A stretch of DNA of 64,000 nt from Anaerovoracaceae bacterium (GTDB lineage: Bacteria; Bacillota; Clostridia; Peptostreptococcales; Anaerovoracaceae), in assembly GCA_050953425.1 (NCBI GenBank), contig JBMNMQ010000007.1, positions 232,408 through 296,407 of the forward strand, in the 5' to 3' direction. Positions within the stretch are counted from its first letter, which is position 1. Each line of letters starts with the position of its first letter. Positions 42,498 through 54,432 of the stretch are shown here, piece by piece. Under the pieces are notes generated by a model. The model saw only the letters and a program-made list of their open reading frames with translations. It was not told where the DNA came from and searched no databases. The position numbers and the translations under genes were made by a program.

Positions 42498-44372
42498 ATG
42501 AAAGAAGTCAAATCGCCGAAGAGGCCGCTGGCCTATTACTATATCATTGCTCTGGTGCTGCTCCTGCTGTTCAATTTTCTGGTCGCGCCGAGCATTTCGC
42601 AGAAAAAGGTCACCGAAGTCAACTACAGCACCTTTATGCACATGATCGAGGATCGCGACGTCGGCAAGGTAGAGATCACCGATACCGAGATCACCTTCAC
42701 CAGCAAGGATGAGAGCAGGATCTACAAGACCGGGGTCATGAATGACCCGGAACTGATCGATCGCCTCTATCAGTCCGGCGCCAAATTTACCAGGGAAATT
42801 GAGACTACGATGTCGCCCGGCCTGACTATTTTCCTCTCCTTCATTCTGCCGGTGCTGATTTTCATCATCCTCGGCGAGTATCTGCGGCGCAAGATGATGC
42901 AGTCGGCCGGCGGCAAGGGCGCGATGTCCTTCGGCATGGGGAAGTCGAACGCCCGGGTCTACGTGCAGTCGACCGGCGGGATCCGCTTCAGCGATGTCGC
43001 CGGCGAGGACGAAGCCAAGGAAAGCCTGCAGGAAATCGTCGAATATCTGCACGATCCGTCCAAATACGAGGAGATCGGCGCGGCCATGCCCAAGGGCATT
43101 CTCCTTGTCGGACCGCCTGGAACCGGCAAGACGATGCTGGCCAAAGCCGTGGCCGGCGAGTCCCAGGTGCCGTTCTTTTCGATTTCCGGTTCGGAGTTCG
43201 TCGAGATGTTCGTCGGCATGGGCGCTTCCAAGGTACGCGACCTGTTCAAGCAGGCCAAGGAGAAAGCTCCCTGCATCGTCTTTATCGACGAGATCGACAC
43301 CATCGGCAAGAAGCGCGACGGGCAGATTTCCGCCAACGACGAGCGCGAACAGACGCTGAACCAGCTTCTGACCGAGATGGACGGTTTTGAGAACAACAAC
43401 GGCGTCATCATTCTCGCCGCCACCAATCGTCCCGAATCCCTCGATCCGGCGCTGACGCGGCCGGGACGCTTTGACCGCCGCGTGCCGGTGGAGCTGCCCG
43501 ATCTCAAGGGCAGAGAGGAGATCCTCAAGGTGCACGCGAAGAAGATCCGCCTCGCCGACGACGTTGATTTCAGCGTCATCGCGCGCATGGCCGCCGGCAC
43601 CTCCGGCGCCGAGCTCGCCAACATCGTCAACGAGAGTGCACTGCGGGCGGTGCGCGACGGCCGCCGCGAGGTGACCGAGGCCGATCTCGAGGAGAGCATT
43701 GAGGTGGTCATCGCCGGATATCAGAAAAAGAACGCCATTCTCTCCGACGACGAGAAAAAGGTGGTCGCCTATCACGAAATCGGTCATGCGCTGGTGGCCG
43801 CGCGGCAGACGCATTCGGCGCCGGTGCAGAAAATCACGATCATTCCCCGCACCTCCGGAGCGCTGGGCTACACCATGCAGGTGGAACAGAATGACAAGAG
43901 TCTGCTGACGCGGGAAGAACTGGAAAACAAGATTGCCACGCTGACCGGCGGCAGGGCGGCGGAAGAGGAGGCCTTCGGCGAAATCACGACCGGCGCTTCC
44001 AACGATATTGAACAGGCCACCAAGCTGGCGCGTGCGATGATCACCCGCTACGGCATGAACGAGGAGTTTGACATGGTGGCGATGGAGACGGTTACCAATC
44101 AGTATCTGGGCGGCGATACGTCGCTGGCCTGCTCGGCGGAAACGCAGAACGAAATCGATCGCAAAGTCATCGACCTGGTCAAAGCGCAGCACGCCCGGGC
44201 GCGGAGCATTCTCGCCGCCAACCGCGATCTGATGCGCCGCCTGGCGGACTTCCTCTACAAGAAGGAGACAATAACCGGCGAGGAGTTCATGGAGATCCTG
44301 AACGAGGAGGATCGCAAGGCCGCGGCCGCTCAGTCGCAGACAGAAACGAAAAAAGGAGGCAGCAGAAAATGA
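42498..44372 (+). CDS. ftsH: ATP-dependent zinc metalloprotease FtsH
   Basis: 624 aa. AAA+ Walker A GPPGTGKT, the second region of homology, and the HEIGHA zinc motif. Confidence 0.9.
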
Positions 44373-48974: not shown

Positions 48975-51545
48975 TCAGCGCACCGACGACAGCACCGGCT
49001 TGGTGTACCAGATCTTTTCGGCGTAGTCGCGGATGCTGCGATCGGCGGCAAAGCGCGCGGCCTTGGCGATGTTGTCGATCGACATCGTATTCCAGCGACT
49101 GCGGTCCTCGTAGTCCGCCTGCATCTGATCGTGCACCCGGCAGTAGTCCTCGAAATCGCGCAGGCACATGTAGGGGTCGGCGATGCTGTACGAGGGCTGC
49201 AGCAGGTAATCCCGCAGCTTGTTGAAATCCCTGCCGGCAAAGCCCCTGCCGATGGCATCGATGACACGGCGCAGCGTCGCATCGGTGTTGTAGAGCTGTT
49301 CGGCATGGTAGCCGTTCTGCACTTCCTGCCGCACTTCTTCTTCGTTGAGACCGAAGATGTAGATGCTGTCCGGCCCGACGGCCTCGCGGATTTCGACGTT
49401 GGCGCCGTCGAGGGTGCCGATGGTGACGGCACCGTTGATCATCATCTTCATATTGCCGGTGCCGCTGGCTTCCTTGCCGGCCAGCGAAATCTGCTCGGAG
49501 ATTTCCGTCGCCGGCATCAGCATCTCCGCCATCGAGACACTGTAGTTTTCCAGAAAGACGACCTTCATCTTCTTTGAGATGACCGGATCGTTTTCGATCT
49601 CTTCCCCCAGTTTCCAGATCAGGTCGATGATCTCCTTGGCCAGATAGTAGCTCGGCGCCGCCTTGGCCGCAAAGAGATAGGTTTCGGGACGCGTCACCTT
49701 GTTCGGATTTTCCTTCAGATCCAGATAGCGGGCGATGATGCGCATCGCGTTCATCAGCTGCCGCTTGTATTCGTGCAGCCGCTTGGCCTGCACGATGAAG
49801 AGCGAGTCGGGATCGATTTCGATGCCGCGGTCGCGGCGGATGCGGTCGGCGAGCCGGGCCTTGCTGCCGCGCTTGATTTTTTCCAGCCGTTCCTGTACGC
49901 CGCTGTCGCCGCGGAAGTGGATGAAATCCTCGAGACGCTCGGGATGCAGCCGATAGTCGGGACCGATGCAGTCGTCGATCAGCGCCGCCAGCTGCGGGTT
50001 GGACTGACACAGCCAGCGGCGGTAGGCGATGCCGTTGGTGACGTTGGCAAATTTATAGGGCGTCATCAGGAAGTGATCGTGAAAGAGATCGTCCCTGAGG
50101 ATGCGCGAGTGCAGCGCCGAGACGCCGTTGACGCGGTGCGAGCCGATGACCGAGAGGTTGGCCATGCGCACCTGCTTGTCGCCGAGAATCGCCATGTAGT
50201 CGATCTTGCCCTTGTCGCCGGGGAATTTTTCGTTGGCGGCAATGCGGAAGCGGCGGTCGATTTCGCAGATGATCGCGAAGATGCGCGGCATCATCGTGCG
50301 CACCAGATCGGCGTTCCATTTTTCCAGCGCTTCGGCGAGGACCGTGTGGTTGGTATAGGAAACGGTGGAAGTGATGATCTTCCAGGCATGATCCCAGTCG
50401 TAGCCGTAATCGTCGAGGAAGATGCGCATCAGTTCCGGAATCGTCAGGGCCGGGTGGGTGTCGTTGATGTGGATCACCGTTTTTTCGCCGAAGTTGCTGA
50501 GCGTGCCGAACTGGTTGTAGTGGTCGCGGACGATGTTCTGGCAGGAAGCGGAGACCATAAAGTACTGCTGCTTGAGCCGCAGCTCCTTGCCTTCCTCGAT
50601 GTTGTCGGCGGGATAGAGTACCTTGGTGATCAGTTCGGCGCTGTTGTTCTTCTGCGCTGCCCGGGTAAAGTCGCCGTTGTTGAAGAGGCCCATGTCAAAG
50701 TCCTCCGAGTCGCGGGCGCGCCAGAGCCGCAGCTTGCTGACGGCCTCGCTGTCGGCGCCGGAAATGTACAGATCGTAGGGTACGGCCTCTACTTTCTGGG
50801 CATCGTCGAGGTGGTAGCGCATCCGGCCGTCTTCCCAGTACTCGCTGTAGCGTCCGTAGAAGTGGACGTAAAAGGTGTCATCTTCGTGCGGGTTGAGCCA
50901 GACGCGGCCGCCGGGAAGCCAGTTGTCCGGCAGCTCGACCTGCCAGCCGTCGACGATCTTCTGCCGGAAGAGGCCGTATTCGTAGCGCAGTGAAAAGCCG
51001 GTTGCATCATAGCCGCCGGTCGCCAGCGCGTCCATGAAGCAGGCTGCCAGCCGTCCCAGGCCGCCGTTGCCGAGACCGGCATCGGGTTCGCAGTCGTAGA
51101 GATCCTGCATGGCGATGCCCTTCTCCTGCATCAGCTCTTCCGCGAGCTGCGTTTCACCGAGGTTATAGAGATTGTTTTTCAGTGACTGGCCGACCAGAAA
51201 CTCCATGCATATATAGTAGATCTTTTTGCGCCCCTGAGTGCGGTTTTCAATCTCCATGCGCCGGTCGTTGAAGGCGACGCGCTTTTCCAGCAGCTGGGTG
51301 TTGACGACGAAAGCCGTCGCCTTGTAGAGATCCTGGACATCGGCCTGCTCAAAAGTGACGTGGAGCCGATTCTTCAGGTATACTTCGATTTTTCTGCGGA
51401 AGGAGGCCGGTGTTTCGGCCTCGGCGGGGATGACGGCACCGAGTTCGGCCGCGGTTTCCGCCGCTGCGGGCGAGGCCGCGGCGGCGGCGGTCATCCGGTT
51501 CGTCTTGTTTCTTGCTGTTTTATTTTCTTTCTTCTTTGCGTTCAT
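48975..51545 (-). CDS. glgP: Glycogen / alpha-glucan phosphorylase
   Basis: 856 aa, GT35 family. The PLP-lysine region motif EASGTGNMK is present. Confidence 0.9.
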   Translation of the reverse strand: MNAKKKENKTARNKTNRMTAAAAASPAAAETAAELGAVIPAEAETPASFRRKIEVYLKNRLHVTFEQADVQDLYKATAFVVNTQLLEKRVAFNDRRMEIENRTQGRKKIYYICMEFLVGQSLKNNLYNLGETQLAEELMQEKGIAMQDLYDCEPDAGLGNGGLGRLAACFMDALATGGYDATGFSLRYEYGLFRQKIVDGWQVELPDNWLPGGRVWLNPHEDDTFYVHFYGRYSEYWEDGRMRYHLDDAQKVEAVPYDLYISGADSEAVSKLRLWRARDSEDFDMGLFNNGDFTRAAQKNNSAELITKVLYPADNIEEGKELRLKQQYFMVSASCQNIVRDHYNQFGTLSNFGEKTVIHINDTHPALTIPELMRIFLDDYGYDWDHAWKIITSTVSYTNHTVLAEALEKWNADLVRTMMPRIFAIICEIDRRFRIAANEKFPGDKGKIDYMAILGDKQVRMANLSVIGSHRVNGVSALHSRILRDDLFHDHFLMTPYKFANVTNGIAYRRWLCQSNPQLAALIDDCIGPDYRLHPERLEDFIHFRGDSGVQERLEKIKRGSKARLADRIRRDRGIEIDPDSLFIVQAKRLHEYKRQLMNAMRIIARYLDLKENPNKVTRPETYLFAAKAAPSYYLAKEIIDLIWKLGEEIENDPVISKKMKVVFLENYSVSMAEMLMPATEISEQISLAGKEASGTGNMKMMINGAVTIGTLDGANVEIREAVGPDSIYIFGLNEEEVRQEVQNGYHAEQLYNTDATLRRVIDAIGRGFAGRDFNKLRDYLLQPSYSIADPYMCLRDFEDYCRVHDQMQADYEDRSRWNTMSIDNIAKAARFAADRSIRDYAEKIWYTKPVLSSVR

Positions 51546-51641: not shown

Positions 51642-53027
51642 CTATTCGAAGAGGCTTTCGTAGAGTTCGCGATAGATGCCGGCGGATTTCTTCCAGCCGA
51701 AATCGAGTTCGAGGTCATGCCGTACGAGAGCGCTCCAGTTGGTGCGGTCGTACCAGCGCTCGACAGCGTTCATCACCGCGTGGTACAGGCTGTCGCTGTC
51801 GTAGTCCTCGAAGACAAAGCCGCTGCCGTCGCCGAGCGTGCAGTCCTTGATCGAGTCGCGCAGCCCGCCGGTGCTGCGCACCACGGGAATATCGCCGTAG
51901 CGGCAGCCGATCATCTGGTTGAGGCCGCAGGGTTCGTTGCGCGACGGCACCAGCAGGATGTCGCCGGCCGCGTAGAGACGATGCGACAGATCGGCACTGA
52001 ACTTGATGATGCAGCGGGCCTTGTCGCGGTGACGGCCCTCGAGCCCGTGGAAGAAGTCTTCGTATTCCGGATAGCCGTTGCCGAGGAGGATGAACTGCAC
52101 ATCGTGGCTGTCGAGGATGCCGTCGATGGTCGCCCGGATCAGATCCATGCCCTTGGCGGGCACCAGGCGGGAGATCACGGTGATCAGCGGCACATCGCGC
52201 ACCGGCAGCGCCAGGCTGTCCTGCAGCTGTGCCTTGCAGATCGCTTTGCCGTTGAGATCCAGACTGGAATAATTGGCGGGAATCAGCGGGTCGACGGCCG
52301 GGTCGTAGAGGGATGTGTCGATGCCGTTGAGAATGCCGTGCAGCTTCCAGGCATTGCGGTTGATGATGTCGTGCAGTCCGCAGGCGGCCAGCGGGCTCTT
52401 CAGCTCTTCGGCGTAGGTCGGGCTGACCGTGCACAGAAGGTGGGCGCTCTCAATGCCGCCCTTGAGCAGATTAACGCCCTCGCCGAATTCGACGACGTGG
52501 TTTTCTCCTTCGGGCAGGCCGATGACTTCGCTGAGGAATTCATGCGGATAAAAGCCCTGATATTCAATGTTGTGGATGGAGAGGATCGTCTTCAGATTTT
52601 CGCGATGATAGAGCGAATTCTGATAGACCGGTACCAGCGCGGTCTGCCAGTCATTGGCGTGAATAATCTCCGGTTCAAAGCCGGTGAGTTCGACGGCGTC
52701 GAGGACGGCCCGCGAGAAGTAGGCAAAGCGCTCGCCGTCGTCGTAGTAGCCGTAGAGCCCGGGACGGCCGAAGTAGTATTCGTTGTCGATGAAATAGTAG
52801 ATCACGCCCCTGTAAGCCAGTTCAAAGACGCCCATGTACTGCGAGCGCCAGGCGAGGTTGATGTAGCGGCTGCCGAGGAATGTCATGCGGGAGCGGTACT
52901 CTTCGCCGATATCCTGATAGAGCGGCAGGATGACCCGGCAGTCGATCTCCGCGCCGCTGAGACTGTTGAGTGCCCGCGGCAGTGAGCCGGAGACTTCGCC
53001 GAGCCCGCCGGTGTGGGCAAAGGGCAC
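51642..53027 (-). CDS. glgA: Glycogen synthase (ADP-glucose type). The N-terminus is truncated or frameshifted as the sequence stands.
   Basis: 461 aa from a GTG start, beginning (M)PFAHTGGLGEV, i.e. at the KTGGL motif. The upstream beta-strand (xxVLFVASE) is missing in this frame but is present in the upstream ORF's frame (RRVLYATP) once a single C is deleted from the C4 run at 53035-53038. Confidence 0.75.
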   Translation of the reverse strand: MPFAHTGGLGEVSGSLPRALNSLSGAEIDCRVILPLYQDIGEEYRSRMTFLGSRYINLAWRSQYMGVFELAYRGVIYYFIDNEYYFGRPGLYGYYDDGERFAYFSRAVLDAVELTGFEPEIIHANDWQTALVPVYQNSLYHRENLKTILSIHNIEYQGFYPHEFLSEVIGLPEGENHVVEFGEGVNLLKGGIESAHLLCTVSPTYAEELKSPLAACGLHDIINRNAWKLHGILNGIDTSLYDPAVDPLIPANYSSLDLNGKAICKAQLQDSLALPVRDVPLITVISRLVPAKGMDLIRATIDGILDSHDVQFILLGNGYPEYEDFFHGLEGRHRDKARCIIKFSADLSHRLYAAGDILLVPSRNEPCGLNQMIGCRYGDIPVVRSTGGLRDSIKDCTLGDGSGFVFEDYDSDSLYHAVMNAVERWYDRTNWSALVRHDLELDFGWKKSAGIYRELYESLFE

Positions 53028-53835
53028 GCACTCGGGGCGTCGCGTAGAGAACCCGGCGAGCCGAAGCAGAAGCCTTCGGAAAATCGGTATCCTCCGCCGC
53101 GGGGGCGGCGCTGCCGGCGTCTGCGGCGGCCGGGGGCATGGCCTCCGGCTTGACGGCCGGGGCTTCCGCCTTCGGCTTGACGGCCGGGGCTTCCGCCTTC
53201 GGCTTGACGGCCGGGGCTTCCGCCTTCGGCTTGACGGCCGGAACCTCTGCCTCCGGCTGCACGACCGGCGTGCCGGATTTCTGCTTTTCGGCCGCGGCGG
53301 TGTCTGCGGCAGTCGCTTTGGCTGCTTTTGCTGTCTCGGCGGCTGTCGATTCGGTCTTTTTTATCTTCTCGGCCGGGGCTGCAGCAGTTTGATTCGTCTC
53401 TGCAGCTTTCCTCGCCGTTGTTTTTTTCGCCGTGGATTTGGCACTGCTCCGGGTTTTGGCCGCAGAGGAAGACGCCGACTTTTTCCGGGTCGTCTTTTTG
53501 GCGGCGGAAGAGGTCGACTTTTTGCGGGCGGCTGTTTTTTTCGTGCCGGAAGCGGCTGTGCTCTTTTTGGCGGCGGTTTTCTTTCGCGTCGTCCTGGCGG
53601 CGGTGGATTTTCCGGTCGTTTTCGTCTCCGCCTTTTTTGCGCTGCTGTCGGTGTCGGCCGCCGCTGCGTTCTTTTTCGCTGCGGCTGTTTTGCTCCCGGC
53701 GGCTGCAGCCGTTTTGCTGCCGGCCGCGGCTCCTGCGGAAGCGCTGTCTGCGGCCCCCGCTGCCGCTGATTCTGCTGTCGGGGTATCGGTCGTATTGTCG
53801 GTGGTCATGGTCTGCTTTTTCGTCGGTTCAGTCAT
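52822..53835 (-). CDS. Lys/Ala/Thr-rich intrinsically disordered protein (histone H1 / AlgP-like KAAK-repeat protein). Its 3' ~70 codons overlap glgA out of frame, so it may be an N-terminal extension of glgA.
   Basis: 337 aa with a strong RBS (gggaggg). It contains AKK / TAAKK repeats and four EAPAVKPKA repeats, the latter encoded by 27-bp DNA tandem repeats at ~53150-53260. After ...AEDTDFPKASASARRVLYATP the composition turns Arg-rich and junk-like. Confidence 0.4.
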   Translation of the reverse strand: MTEPTKKQTMTTDNTTDTPTAESAAAGAADSASAGAAAGSKTAAAAGSKTAAAKKNAAAADTDSSAKKAETKTTGKSTAARTTRKKTAAKKSTAASGTKKTAARKKSTSSAAKKTTRKKSASSSAAKTRSSAKSTAKKTTARKAAETNQTAAAPAEKIKKTESTAAETAKAAKATAADTAAAEKQKSGTPVVQPEAEVPAVKPKAEAPAVKPKAEAPAVKPKAEAPAVKPEAMPPAAADAGSAAPAAEDTDFPKASASARRVLYATPRVRALCPHRRARRSLRLTAAGTQQSQRRGDRLPGHPAALSGYRRRVPLPHDIPRQPLHQPRLALAVHGRL

Positions 53836-54432
53836 ACCTGCCCTCCCTGTCGGTATCGGTTTGATGTTCAGAAAATCCTGTGTTTTTGTCCTTGCGGTAC
53901 GTCCCTGATTATACTACATTCGGCGATTCGGTACAACGGCTGGCGGAACCGCCGGGAGCTCCGTCTGCGGTGTCCGGCGGGATGCTTTCTGCGCGGTGCA
54001 CGGAGAACGCGGCGGCCCCGCAAACAGGCGGCCCGCGGACCGGTGCGCGGCACGGCGGCACTGCTTTCGCGCGGCCGCAGGCGGCGGTGCGGAAACGTAA
54101 ATTTTAGGTCATTTTTCTGTATAACGGCGCCGTTCAGTCCGATGAGGGCGATCAGCAGCCCGAGCAGGGCGGCAGGAAAGATCTGCGTGTGCCGGGTTTC
54201 GCGGCCGGGACCGGACGGCGCGTCAGGTCCGTCGGTGTATGACCGTGCGTGCCGGGTTCCGCGGACGGGGCCGCCGCCCCGGAAACGCAAATTTTCTGTA
54301 AGGAAGGGATAAACTTTCTGCCCCTCCCGCCGGCGCAATTGCAATGGCGGGCTCACTGCGTTATTATAGTTTGAAAAGACGAATTTATTGCGCTATTATA
54401 AAAAGAGAACCACCGTGCGGGAGGAAACCGAA

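What the first reader, a model, noticed from the sequence alone, without database searches (positions are those of the whole stretch)
52822..53840. glgA N-terminus displaced by a single-base frameshift in a C4/G4 run, with a possible Lys/Ala-rich disordered N-terminal extension
As assembled, glgA can only start at a GTG directly at the KTGGL motif (MPFAHTGGL). That lacks the conserved first beta-strand. The upstream 337-aa K/A-rich ORF (strong RBS, ATG at 53835) overlaps it out of frame and turns into Arg-rich junk after ...ARRVLYATP. Deleting one C from the cccc run (plus-strand gggg at 53035-53038) produces RRVLYATPECVPFAHTGGLGEV in one frame, a canonical GlgA N-terminus. The frame then stays open upstream through the whole K/A-rich ORF. 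The nearest in-frame Met is 36 codons upstream (MPPAAAD...) and has a poorly spaced RBS. So one of three things is true. (a) There is a sequencing error, and GlgA carries a ~270-aa histone-H1-like disordered N-terminal domain, with EAPAVKPKA repeats encoded by 27-bp tandem repeats. (b) There is a sequencing error and GlgA starts at an internal start. (c) glgA is a genuinely frameshifted or phase-variable gene.
Basis: seen in the sequence. Interest (0 to 1): 0.55.

Follow-up and report, generated by a model that had tools for sequence, protein, structure and literature searches.

The report
Frameshifted glycogen synthase with lysine-rich tail
One extra C in this assembly splits a glycogen synthase gene that, in four other contigs of the same organism, is a single 730-residue protein with a long, disordered, positively charged lysine/alanine-rich N-terminal tail; the break is ordinary, but the tail is common in gut Clostridia and apparently undescribed.

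Summary
On the minus strand, a 337-aa K/A-rich ORF (53835..52822) runs out of frame into a 461-aa GTG-start glgA (53027..51642).

That intact ORF exists. An ENA contig (L001) matches the window over 2,224 nt with no mismatch and one gap, the extra C. A 333-kb JGI contig (L004) is identical over about 19.7 kb except for the same C. The intact 730-aa protein is recorded on three JGI contigs. No other assembly shows the C4 allele.

Repair restores beta-strand 1 of the GT5 fold. The Pfam match then starts at profile position 1 instead of 11, and E. coli GlgA residue 2 aligns to RVLYATPE.

The first ~259 residues (A31 K16 T15 S10 %, net +24, pI 10.1) are predicted disordered. Close relatives carry equivalent basic tails in the same ORF, and other lineages carry them at the C-terminus.

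So reading (a) holds. Assembly error versus a private mutation cannot be settled without reads (roughly 60:35). The tail's function is inferred only: polyanion or nucleoid tethering, as in PhaM, PhaF and AlgP.

The parts
53931..53936 (-). Candidate -35 hexamer TTGTAC of the glgA promoter
   Evidence: Read directly. It lies 17 nt upstream of a perfect TATAAT. The consensus scanner did not list it because only 3 of 6 positions match in the -35.
53908..53913 (-). Candidate -10 hexamer TATAAT, within GTAGTATAAT
   Evidence: Read. The same GTAGTATAAT lies about 60-70 nt upstream of the far ATG of the orthologue in L002. This supports transcription starting upstream of the whole K/A-rich region.
53841..53847 (-). 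Shine-Dalgarno sequence GGGAGGG, 5 nt before the ATG
53059..53835 (-). Codons 1-259: the N-terminal A/K/T/S-rich extension of GlgA. It is basic (net +24, pI 10.1) and predicted disordered.
   Evidence: Composition. AlphaFold gives pLDDT <50 for residues 1-192 and 205-249 (10-residue block means stay below 55 up to residue 250), with no secondary structure before residue 260. No Pfam family matches. It is the only such segment in any frame of the window.
53356..53715 (-). Residues 41-160: the polycationic core (K 23%, A 29%, T 18%, net +29, pI 11.4)
53141..53241 (-). 27-bp tandem repeat, 3.7 copies at 98% match, encoding EAPAVKPKA; a Pro/Ala/Lys linker next to the catalytic domain
   Evidence: Copy number is identical in L001 and L004. 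The same VPAVKP motif occurs in distant orthologues P0024 and P0034.
53137..53139 (-).
   Evidence: Its GGAGG is only 2 nt upstream, which is poor spacing. It is not conserved in orthologues.
53034..53037 (-). C4 run (plus-strand G4) holding the one extra base that breaks the frame. Other contigs have C3.
   Evidence: It is the single gap in 2,224 nt against L001, and the single difference in about 19.7 kb against L004.
53035..53058 (-). Codons 260-267, RRVLYATP: beta-strand 1 of the N-terminal Rossmann-like domain. It is lost from the annotated 461-aa product.
   Evidence: AlphaFold places a strand at E260-265. Pfam PF08323 starts at profile position 1 at residue 261 in the intact protein, but at position 11 in the 461-aa product. 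E. coli GlgA residue 2 aligns here.
53025..53027 (-). GTG taken as the start of the 461-aa glgA in the deposited annotation (P0002, MGI6737256.1). It is really Val270.
   Evidence: There is no Shine-Dalgarno sequence upstream.
51642..53033 (-). Remainder of glgA after the frameshift: codons 268-730 plus the stop. This is the GT5 catalytic core with the HTGGL motif.
   Evidence: Pfam PF08323, PF00534 and PF13692. PDB matches to GlgA and starch synthases at E 1e-72 to 1e-79. pLDDT is mostly above 90.
52822..53033 (-). Out-of-frame Arg-rich tail of the 337-aa ORF. It is an artefact of the frameshift, not a real peptide.
   Evidence: It overlaps the glgA catalytic frame. No protein with this tail exists in the 5.8-billion-cluster collection.

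Best explanation
The native gene is a single 2,193-nt glgA (53835..51642, minus strand). It encodes a 730-aa ADP-glucose-type glycogen synthase made of two parts:
- a ~259-residue intrinsically disordered, polycationic A/K/T/S-rich N-terminal extension, with a basic core at residues 41-160 and four EAPAVKPKA linker repeats;
- a canonical GT5 catalytic domain.

In this particular assembly, one extra C in a C3 run (giving C4 at 53034-53037) splits the gene. The result is a 337-aa K/A-rich ORF with a junk tail and a 461-aa remnant. The annotation pipeline started that remnant at an internal GTG, so it lacks beta-strand 1.

The extra base is most likely a consensus or assembly error (about 60%). 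Otherwise it is a very recent private loss-of-function mutation (about 35%). In either case it is not a designed feature.

Transcription is inferred to start from a TTGTAC-17-TATAAT promoter about 70 nt upstream of ATG 53835. The gene sits in a glycogen cluster: glgA-glgP runs divergent from glgB-glgC-glgD-amylase.

Function of the extension is inferred, not shown, at roughly 35-40%. Through non-specific electrostatic binding it would tether GlgA, and therefore nascent glycogen particles, to a cellular polyanion: nucleoid DNA, RNA or polyphosphate. This would control where glycogen is made and how it is shared between daughter cells. The histone-H1-like tails of PhaM and PhaF do this for PHB/PHA granules, and AlgP does it for polyphosphate granules.
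For: Shown:
1. Deleting one C gives a 730-aa ORF.
2. ENA contig L001 matches the window over 2,224 nt with 0 mismatches and 1 gap, the extra C.
3. JGI contig L004 (333 kb) is identical from window 63835 to 44121 except for that C. Its product P0121 equals the repaired protein residue for residue and is recorded on 3 JGI contigs.
4. The search with the 730-aa protein listed no other 100%-identical product apart from P0001 and P0002. An exact look-up did not find the 337-aa product in the collection. The C4 allele is therefore seen only in this assembly.
5. Repair restores Pfam PF08323 from profile position 1 instead of 11. It restores the alignment to E. coli GlgA from residue 2 and AlphaFold strand E260-265.
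6. There is no Shine-Dalgarno sequence before the GTG. A strong one precedes the far ATG. The GTAGTATAAT -10 box is conserved upstream of the far ATG in the 71%-identical orthologue.
7. Orthologues P0003, P0004, P0005, P0006, P0009, P0012, P0014 and P0024 carry basic A/K-rich extensions of 107-253 aa (net +14 to +40) in one ORF with the catalytic domain.
8. In an unbiased search with the tail-less domain, 7 of the 9 closest 50%-identity cluster representatives have such tails.
9. Of 80 GTDB species loci, 36 have an N-terminal extension of at least 30 aa.
10. Other lineages carry the basic tail at the C-terminus: P0040 from Pseudoflavonifractor, P0066 from Coriobacteriaceae, and P0132 and P0167. 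This argues for convergent acquisition.
11. The extension is predicted disordered.

For the function (inference):
- The composition and charge resemble AlgP (net +55) and PhaF (net +35). Their K/P/A tails bind DNA and space granules (PMC9239181, PMC13052382).
- The P0003 tail gives a sub-threshold Pfam HC2 hit.
- The relative P0125 carries 5 copies of KRGRKK, an AT-hook-like motif.
- Lysine-rich low-complexity regions are typically non-specific DNA or RNA binders, and metabolic enzymes are normally depleted of them (PMC6821194).
Against: - Error versus real mutation is unresolved. No reads are available. The gene contains longer homopolymers (A7, A6, C5, G5) that are intact, so a generic homopolymer error model does not single out this C-run. 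No other broken gene was found among the suspicious ORF pairs in the window, so the assembly is not generally error-ridden.
- Translation of the extension is inferred from ORF conservation. It is not shown by proteomics. GC3 in the extension (0.69) is lower than in the catalytic part (0.82).
- The tethering function has no direct evidence. The window protein itself gives no HC2 hit at E<=0.1. Apart from a few recurring short words (KTAAKK in 6 of 17 tails, VPAVKP in 3), only composition is shared across tails. Some close relatives (P0007, P0011, Mogibacterium L005) lack any tail, so it is dispensable for catalysis.
Confidence: 0.85

Rival explanations
1. The extra C is a genuine, very recent mutation in the population this MAG represents. 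Here glgA is then a pseudogene or a strong hypomorph: a K/A-rich peptide with a junk tail, plus at best a poorly initiated GlgA lacking beta-strand 1.
For: - The window shows no other frameshifted gene among the candidates tested, and its ftsH is intact where L004's is broken. The assembly therefore looks accurate.
- Longer homopolymers in the same gene are undisturbed.
- Spontaneous indels also favour short runs, and glycogen synthesis is dispensable (established knowledge).
Against: - There are zero substitutions in 19.7 kb against L004 and in 2.2 kb against L001. The only difference is of the class typical of consensus errors.
- The C4 allele and its predicted 337-aa product are absent from every other assembly in the collection.
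- No secondary decay of the gene is seen.
Confidence: 0.35
2. Programmed or tolerated +1 ribosomal frameshifting. With tRNA-Pro on CCC in the P site and the rare Arg codon CGA in the A site, the ribosome slips +1 on CCC-C and makes full-length GlgA from the C4 allele.
For: - The site reads ACG CCC CGA G.
- CGA makes up about 1% of Arg codons in five reference coding regions.
- CCC-N is a known +1-prone context (established knowledge of tRNA-Pro, m1G37 and EF-P).
Against: - The frameshift is not conserved. Four contigs of the same organism and all orthologues examined have one uninterrupted ORF.
- There is no Shine-Dalgarno-like stimulator upstream of the site.
- A programmed site would be expected in every copy.
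Confidence: 0.03
3. Two real genes: an independent K/A-rich histone-like protein followed by a short GTG-initiated GlgA, as the deposited annotation implies.
For: Both ORFs exist as assembled. The deposited record annotates the 461-aa product as glycogen synthase.
Against: - The 461-aa product lacks beta-strand 1 and the first 10 Pfam profile positions.
- There is no RBS before the GTG.
- The last 69 residues of the 337-aa ORF are read out of frame across the conserved catalytic sequence.
- None of the tail-bearing orthologues fetched has the K/A region as a separate ORF; what lies upstream of the tail-less orthologues was not examined.
Confidence: 0.02
4. GlgA starts at an internal codon (M233 or nearby). 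The K/A-rich region would then be an untranslated leader or an incidental open frame in GC-rich DNA.
For: - GC-rich DNA gives long chance ORFs. A 279-aa antisense ORF overlaps the same region.
- GC3 and codon bias are weaker in the extension.
- An in-frame ATG exists at 53139.
Against: - The frame is kept open and in phase with glgA, with the same basic A/K composition, in many orthologues whose DNA sequences are unrelated.
- P0004 has no internal Met.
- The strong RBS and the conserved -10 box are at the far ATG, whereas the RBS at M233 is badly spaced.
- Basic tails also occur C-terminally, where no start-site ambiguity exists.
Confidence: 0.05
5. The extension is translated but has no specific tethering role. 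It would be a tolerated low-complexity expansion, a solubility or 'entropic bristle' tag, or a spacer affecting oligomerisation.
For: - Apart from a few recurring short words, no conserved motif is shared across tails; length varies from 44 to 260 aa, and some close relatives lack it.
- Near-perfect 27-bp repeats show recent slippage-driven growth.
Against: - Net positive charge and low hydrophobicity are maintained across most tails while sequences turn over. A few tails are near-neutral or net negative (L018, L023, P0164, P0210).
- The tail has been acquired at either terminus in different lineages.
- It is the only such segment in 64 kb.
- Metabolic enzymes are usually depleted of such regions (PMC6821194).
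Confidence: 0.4

Closest known systems
Bacterial glycogen synthase GlgA (GT5; E. coli GlgA PDB 2QZS, A. tumefaciens 1RZU)
   Same: - Full-length match to Pfam PF08323, PF00534 and PF13692.
- Aligns to E. coli GlgA residues 2-475 at E 1e-77.
- Has the K/H-TGGL motif.
- Is linked to glgB, glgC, glgD and glgP.
   Different: It carries a ~259-aa disordered polycationic N-terminal extension that the characterised enzymes lack; they are 477-485 aa.
PhaM (Cupriavidus necator) and PhaF (Pseudomonas putida): PHB/PHA granule proteins with histone-H1-like tails
   Same: A storage-polymer protein joined to a lysine/alanine/proline-rich, disordered, strongly basic region. In PhaM and PhaF that region binds DNA non-specifically and tethers granules to the nucleoid. 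PhaM also complexes with and activates the polymer synthase (PMC13052382, PMC9239181).
   Different: - Here the tail is fused to the synthase itself, at the N-terminus. PhaM and PhaF are separate proteins with C-terminal tails.
- The polymer is glycogen, not PHA.
- There is no sequence homology, only composition.
- Binding and localisation are untested.
AlgP (Pseudomonas aeruginosa), the histone-H1-like polyphosphate-granule spacing factor
   Same: A long, intrinsically disordered, tandem-repeat K/P/A tail (KPAA repeats, net +55) that varies in repeat number and is needed for even granule spacing (PMC9239181). The window protein has tandem EAPAVKPKA repeats and a +29 core.
   Different: The repeat unit, the charge density and the partner domain all differ. 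AlgP has no enzymatic domain.
Chlamydial histone-like protein Hc2 (Pfam PF07382)
   Same: Lys/Ala-rich repetitive composition. The orthologue P0003's tail scores 29.3 bits against HC2.
   Different: That score is below the 40-bit family cut-off. The window protein gives no hit at E<=0.1. The resemblance is compositional, not family membership.
Plant starch synthases SSIII and SSIV, with long non-catalytic N-terminal extensions
   Same: The closest solved structure is the Arabidopsis SS4 catalytic domain (6gne, E 5.5e-79). The idea that a GT5 synthase carries an N-terminal region directing where granules start comes from my own knowledge of SS4.
   Different: Plant extensions are coiled-coil or CBM53 domains (my own knowledge, not tested here). 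They are not basic low-complexity disordered tails.

Membership tests
GlgA / GT5 glycogen (starch) synthase | N-terminal Glyco_transf_5 domain covered from its first strand, plus a C-terminal GT1 domain | tested here: met
   The repaired or intact protein matches PF08323 at positions 1-238 of 239 (residues 261-492), along with PF00534 and PF13692. The as-assembled 461-aa ORF matches only from profile position 11.
GlgA / GT5 glycogen (starch) synthase | K-X-G-G-L type motif just after beta-strand 1 | tested here: met
   The sequence is ...ATPECVPFAHTGGLGEV. It aligns to E. coli ...CSEMFPLLKTGGLADV. His replaces Lys, as in several orthologues.
GlgA / GT5 glycogen (starch) synthase | Genomic linkage to other glycogen genes | tested here: met
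   glgP lies downstream. glgB, glgC, glgD, an amylase and a PGM lie divergently upstream. The same order occurs in L002 and L004.
GlgA / GT5 glycogen (starch) synthase | ADP-glucose-dependent alpha-1,4-glucan elongation activity | not testable with these tools
   This needs an enzyme assay.
Histone H1-like nucleoprotein HC2 (PF07382) | Score at or above the Pfam gathering threshold (40 bits) | tested here: not met
   The window protein gives no hit at E<=0.1. Orthologue P0003 scores 29.3 bits.
Histone-H1-like granule tethers (PhaM, PhaF, AlgP type) | Long, disordered, K/A/P-rich, strongly net-positive region | tested here: met
   Net +24, with a +29 core and pI 10.1-11.4. pLDDT is below 50 over most of the region, with no secondary structure.
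Histone-H1-like granule tethers (PhaM, PhaF, AlgP type) | Non-specific DNA (or polyP) binding, and an effect on granule number, spacing or inheritance | not testable with these tools
   This needs EMSA or microscopy with tail-deletion variants.
Programmed +1 ribosomal frameshift (prfB type) | Frameshift site conserved in orthologues and in all copies of the gene | tested here: not met
   Four contigs of the same organism and all orthologues examined are uninterrupted.
Programmed +1 ribosomal frameshift (prfB type) | Slippery P-site codon followed by a slow A-site codon, with an upstream Shine-Dalgarno-like stimulator | tested here: inconclusive
   CCC-CGA with rare CGA is present, but no Shine-Dalgarno-like element lies upstream.
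Slipped-strand phase-variable gene | Long homopolymer or short-repeat tract (typically 7 or more units) in the coding region | tested here: not met
   The tract is C3 or C4 only.

The most novel reading that the evidence does not exclude
The basic disordered tails found on glycogen synthases of many gut Clostridia (N-terminal) and of Oscillospiraceae and Coriobacteriia (C-terminal) are a convergently evolved tether. They would anchor the synthase, and with it the growing glycogen particles, to the nucleoid or to another polyanion. This would be the first glycogen-granule positioning and partitioning mechanism described in bacteria. It would be built into the synthase itself, and it would counteract the polar, asymmetric glycogen accumulation seen in E. 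coli.
Probability: 0.3. Interest if true: 0.7.

Novelty: new variant of a known kind. Interest (0 to 1): 0.4.

Why it matters
- **Annotation.** The deposited 461-aa 'glycogen synthase' (MGI6737256.1) is a truncated artefact of a one-base frame break. The true product is 730 aa. Pipelines that restart at an internal GTG hide both the lesion and the extension.
- **Biology.** A polycationic disordered tail on a central storage-polymer synthase is unexpected for a metabolic enzyme. It recurs in most of the closest relatives and appears at either terminus in different lineages.
- **Existing analogy.** Histone-like tails position PHB and polyphosphate granules (PhaM, PhaF, AlgP). A 2025 review of bacterial organelle positioning does not mention glycogen at all (PMC13052382).
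- **Link to E. coli.** There, glycogen piles up at the old pole and drives asymmetric division (PMC11042326, PMC4836754). A synthase-borne nucleoid tether would be a simple way to avoid that, and it can be tested directly by tail deletion and heterologous expression.

Tried and rejected
1. Two exact-match scans of metagenome contigs for the site found nothing. That collection evidently lacks these samples, so no allele census was possible.
2. A look-up of the contig encoding P0002 found nothing on record, so the window's sample and technology could not be identified.
3. An exact look-up of the 337-aa frameshift product found it absent from the collection. I use this only as weak evidence that the C4 allele is unique to this assembly.
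4. The consensus promoter scan found no minus-strand site. The TTGTAC-17-TATAAT promoter was read by eye and supported by conservation of the -10 box in L002.
5. A scan for other frameshifts looked at same-strand overlapping open frames with a coding-like GC3. All eight tested products (from four same-strand overlapping pairs) carry separate Pfam domains, complete or nearly so. There is therefore no sign of a generally indel-ridden assembly.
6. Rfam at gathering thresholds found nothing in the whole window, so no leader RNA element is evident.
7. Pfam scans of extension-bearing homologues found no domain in any tail except the sub-threshold HC2 hit.
8. Literature searches for GlgA together with lysine-rich, disordered or N-terminal-extension terms returned nothing relevant. 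This covers the held library only.
9. Phase variation and programmed frameshifting were considered and rejected (see the membership tests).


Full report
**1. What is in the sequence**

All features below lie on the minus strand.

- ATG 53835 opens a 337-aa ORF ending at 52822. GGGAGGG precedes the ATG by 5 nt.
- A second ORF of 461 aa (53027..51642) starts at a GTG and reads MPFAHTGGL....
- The two ORFs overlap out of frame.
- The sequence at the junction is ...GCG ACG CCC CGA GTG CGT GCC C.... The C4 run corresponds to plus-strand G4 at 53034-53037.
- Removing one C yields a 730-aa ORF reading ...SASARRVLYATPECVPFAHTGGLGEV....
- The 27-bp tandem repeat (53141-53241, 3.7 copies, 98% match) encodes EAPAVKPKA.
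- The nearest in-frame Met is M233 (ATG 53139). Its GGAGG is only 2 nt away, and the GTG has no Shine-Dalgarno sequence.

**2. The repaired frame is the native protein**

- Pfam's starch-synthase catalytic domain PF08323 matches the intact protein from profile position 1, at residue 261. It matches the 461-aa product only from position 11.
- E. coli GlgA (PDB 2QZS) aligns from its residue 2 to RVLYATPECVPFAHTGGL.
- An AlphaFold model built on a 23-sequence alignment places beta-strand 1 at residues 260-265. Confidence is above 90 for most of the catalytic domain.
- The GTG 'start' is Val270, downstream of that strand.

**3. Independent DNA carries the intact gene**

It also returned P0002, the 461-aa product, deposited as MGI6737256.1, 'MAG: glycogen synthase [Anaerovoracaceae bacterium]', from an 818-kb contig.
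- The same 90% cluster holds P0121, a 730-aa JGI protein seen on three contigs.
- At the DNA level, L001 matches the window over 2,224 nt with 0 mismatches and a single gap, the extra C.
- L004 (JGI 3300053716, 333 kb) is identical to the window from 63835 down to 44121, about 19.7 kb, except for that same C.
- The search listed no other 100%-identical product, and an exact look-up did not find the 337-aa frameshift product.

The C3 allele is therefore seen on four contigs from two sources. The C4 allele is seen only in this assembly.

**4. Error or mutation?**

This cannot be decided without reads.

- For an artefact: there are no substitutions in about 20 kb. The only difference is a homopolymer indel, the typical residue of consensus errors. 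The allele is unique to this assembly.
- For a real lesion: the window is otherwise clean. Eight products from four same-strand overlapping frame pairs each carry separate Pfam domains, complete or nearly so. ftsH is intact here but broken in L004. Longer homopolymers in glgA (A7, A6, C5, G5) are undisturbed.
- My estimate is about 60% artefact, about 35% private mutation and under 5% anything designed.

Two designed mechanisms were considered.

- Phase variation is unlikely for a 3-4-nt run.
- A +1 slip at CCC-CGA is mechanistically conceivable, because CGA makes up about 1% of Arg codons in five reference coding regions. However, the frameshift is not conserved in any other copy or orthologue, and there is no upstream stimulator.

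**5. The extension is real and lineage-wide**

- Residues 1-259 are A 31%, K 16%, T 15%, S 10% and P 7%. The pI is 10.1, the net charge is +24, and there is a single aromatic residue.
- Residues 41-160 form a +29 core with pI 11.4. Residues 201-268 are a Pro/Ala/Lys linker containing the repeats.
- AlphaFold gives pLDDT below 50 for residues 1-192 and 205-249 (block means stay below 55 up to residue 250), and no secondary structure before residue 260.
- No Pfam family matches the extension.
- It is the only such segment in any frame of the 64-kb window.

Evidence from orthologues:

- P0003 (71% identity, 684 aa), P0004, P0005, P0006, P0009, P0012, P0014 and P0024 all have extensions of 107-253 aa with net charge +14 to +40. 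Each extension is in one ORF with the catalytic domain.
- The sequences do not align, but composition and charge are kept.
- Some short words recur, for example KTAAKK in 6 of 17 tails and VPAVKP in 3.

Because my first query contained the tail, I repeated the search without it.

- With the 461-aa domain against 1.84 billion representatives, 7 of the 9 closest clusters carry basic A/K-rich N-terminal tails.
- About 13 of 136 aligned representatives carry such tails N-terminally. Three more carry A/K-rich low-hydrophobicity tails C-terminally: P0132 and P0167 are net positive, and P0164 is E/A/K/P-rich with net -8.
- Among 80 GTDB species-representative loci, 36 have an N-terminal extension of at least 30 aa. 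Most of these are K-rich and net positive. They include Christensenellaceae and many uncultured Clostridia.
- The closest locus, a Mogibacterium, has no extension.
- C-terminal basic tails occur in Pseudoflavonifractor phocaeensis (P0040), in 813-845-aa proteins (P0046, P0048) and in a Coriobacteriaceae MAG (P0066).

A tail at either terminus in different lineages argues for repeated acquisition and selection for charge.

**6. Start site and expression**

- A TTGTAC-17 nt-TATAAT promoter lies at 53936-53908.
- The GTAGTATAAT box recurs about 60-70 nt upstream of the far ATG in the P0003 locus L002.
- P0004 has no internal Met in its extension.
- Codon choice in the extension follows the genome's preferences (GCC, ACC/ACG, CCG), with weaker GC3: 0.69 against 0.82.

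These points favour initiation at 53835. They argue against reading (b), although a minor short isoform cannot be excluded.

**7. Context**

glgA-glgP runs divergent from glgB-glgC-glgD-amylase-phosphoglucomutase. The order is the same in L002 and L004. This is a standard Bacillota glycogen cluster. No Rfam family is present in the window.

**8. How it probably works**

Shown: the catalytic part is an ordinary GT5 glycogen synthase.

Inferred: the tail is a non-specific polyanion binder.

- Its composition, disorder and charge match the K/P/A tails of AlgP (net +55) and PhaF (net +35). Those tails bind DNA and are required for even spacing of polyphosphate and PHA granules.
- PhaM does the same for PHB and also activates the PHB synthase (PMC9239181, PMC13052382).
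- Lysine-rich low-complexity regions are typical of non-specific DNA and RNA binders, and metabolic enzymes are usually depleted of them (PMC6821194).
- Two relatives strengthen the nucleic-acid reading. P0125 carries five KRGRKKAEETAKP units, and P0161 carries KPGRRPG and KRRGRKPS. Both resemble AT-hooks.
- P0003's tail scores 29.3 bits against Pfam HC2, below the 40-bit cut-off.

I therefore propose that the tail anchors GlgA and nascent glycogen to the nucleoid, or to RNA or polyP. I put this at 35-40%.

The main rival is a non-specific role as a solubility tag, spacer or tolerated expansion. It is about equally likely.

In E. coli, untethered glycogen accumulates at the old pole and causes asymmetric division (PMC11042326, PMC4836754). 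This gives the hypothesis a clear phenotype to test.

**9. Comparison with known systems, and novelty**

- Membership in GlgA/GT5 is met on every testable criterion.
- Membership in the HC2 histone-like family was tested and not met. The similarity to PhaM, PhaF and AlgP is one of working principle, not homology.
- I found no paper in the held library describing lysine-rich tails on bacterial glycogen synthases. A 2025 review of bacterial organelle positioning never mentions glycogen.
- Such proteins are already in public databases under the plain name 'glycogen synthase'.

The frame break itself is ordinary. The tailed synthase is a new variant of a known kind.

**10. Verdict**

- The frameshift is an assembly error or a private lesion and is of no special interest.
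- The deposited 461-aa annotation is wrong.
- The item of real, moderate interest is the widespread polycationic disordered tail on GlgA. Its function remains to be tested.

Noticed in passing
window 42927-44120 (ftsH, 42498..44372 +) against L004 19715-20918: The only other place where the window and the JGI contig differ is a 1.2-kb patch inside ftsH, with 166 mismatches and about 20 gaps. ftsH is intact in the window (624 aa) but split into three ORFs in L004. This looks like a strain-mixed or poorly polished patch in the JGI contig.
   Followed up: partly
L001 2225-2430: The last 206 nt of the ENA contig do not match the window. They fuse glgA to a TauD-like (PF02668) reading frame. This is probably a chimeric join in the short-read assembly.
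   Followed up: no
window 51400-51545 (-), N-terminus of glgP (48975..51545): GlgP begins with about 45 extra residues, MNAKKKENKTARNKTNRMTAAAAASPAAAETAAELGAVIPAEAETPAS: a short basic patch followed by an Ala-rich stretch. The L002 orthologue lacks them. A start at M17 is also possible.
   Followed up: partly
proteins P0143, P0146, P0149, P0150, P0152, P0153, P0155, P0157, P0158, P0159: About a dozen GlgA representatives with 41-44% identity carry giant N-terminal extensions of 400-1,100 aa. These are strongly acidic and Glu-rich, with net charge between -16 and -248. The three of this group that I printed and that begin 'MDK' (P0143, P0146, P0149) start with a short K/T-rich basic patch such as KKTTAKKTT; P0133 does not. 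Their source organisms and function are unknown.
   Followed up: no
proteins P0125 and P0161: The N-terminal extensions of these GlgA relatives contain repeated AT-hook-like motifs: five copies of KRGRKKAEETAKP in P0125, and KPGRRPG and KRRGRKPS in P0161. This hints at nucleic-acid binding.
   Followed up: no
window 53908-53917 (-) and L002 5941-5950: An identical GTAGTATAAT element lies about 60-70 nt upstream of the glgA start codon in two species whose GlgA proteins share 71% identity. It is probably the conserved -10 box of the glgA-glgP promoter.
   Followed up: partly
window 52930-53769 (+): A 279-aa Arg/Gly-rich ORF lies antisense to the K/A-rich region. It is a by-product of the biased composition, not a gene.
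   Followed up: no
window 1-64000: No Rfam family reaches its gathering score anywhere in the window.
   Followed up: yes
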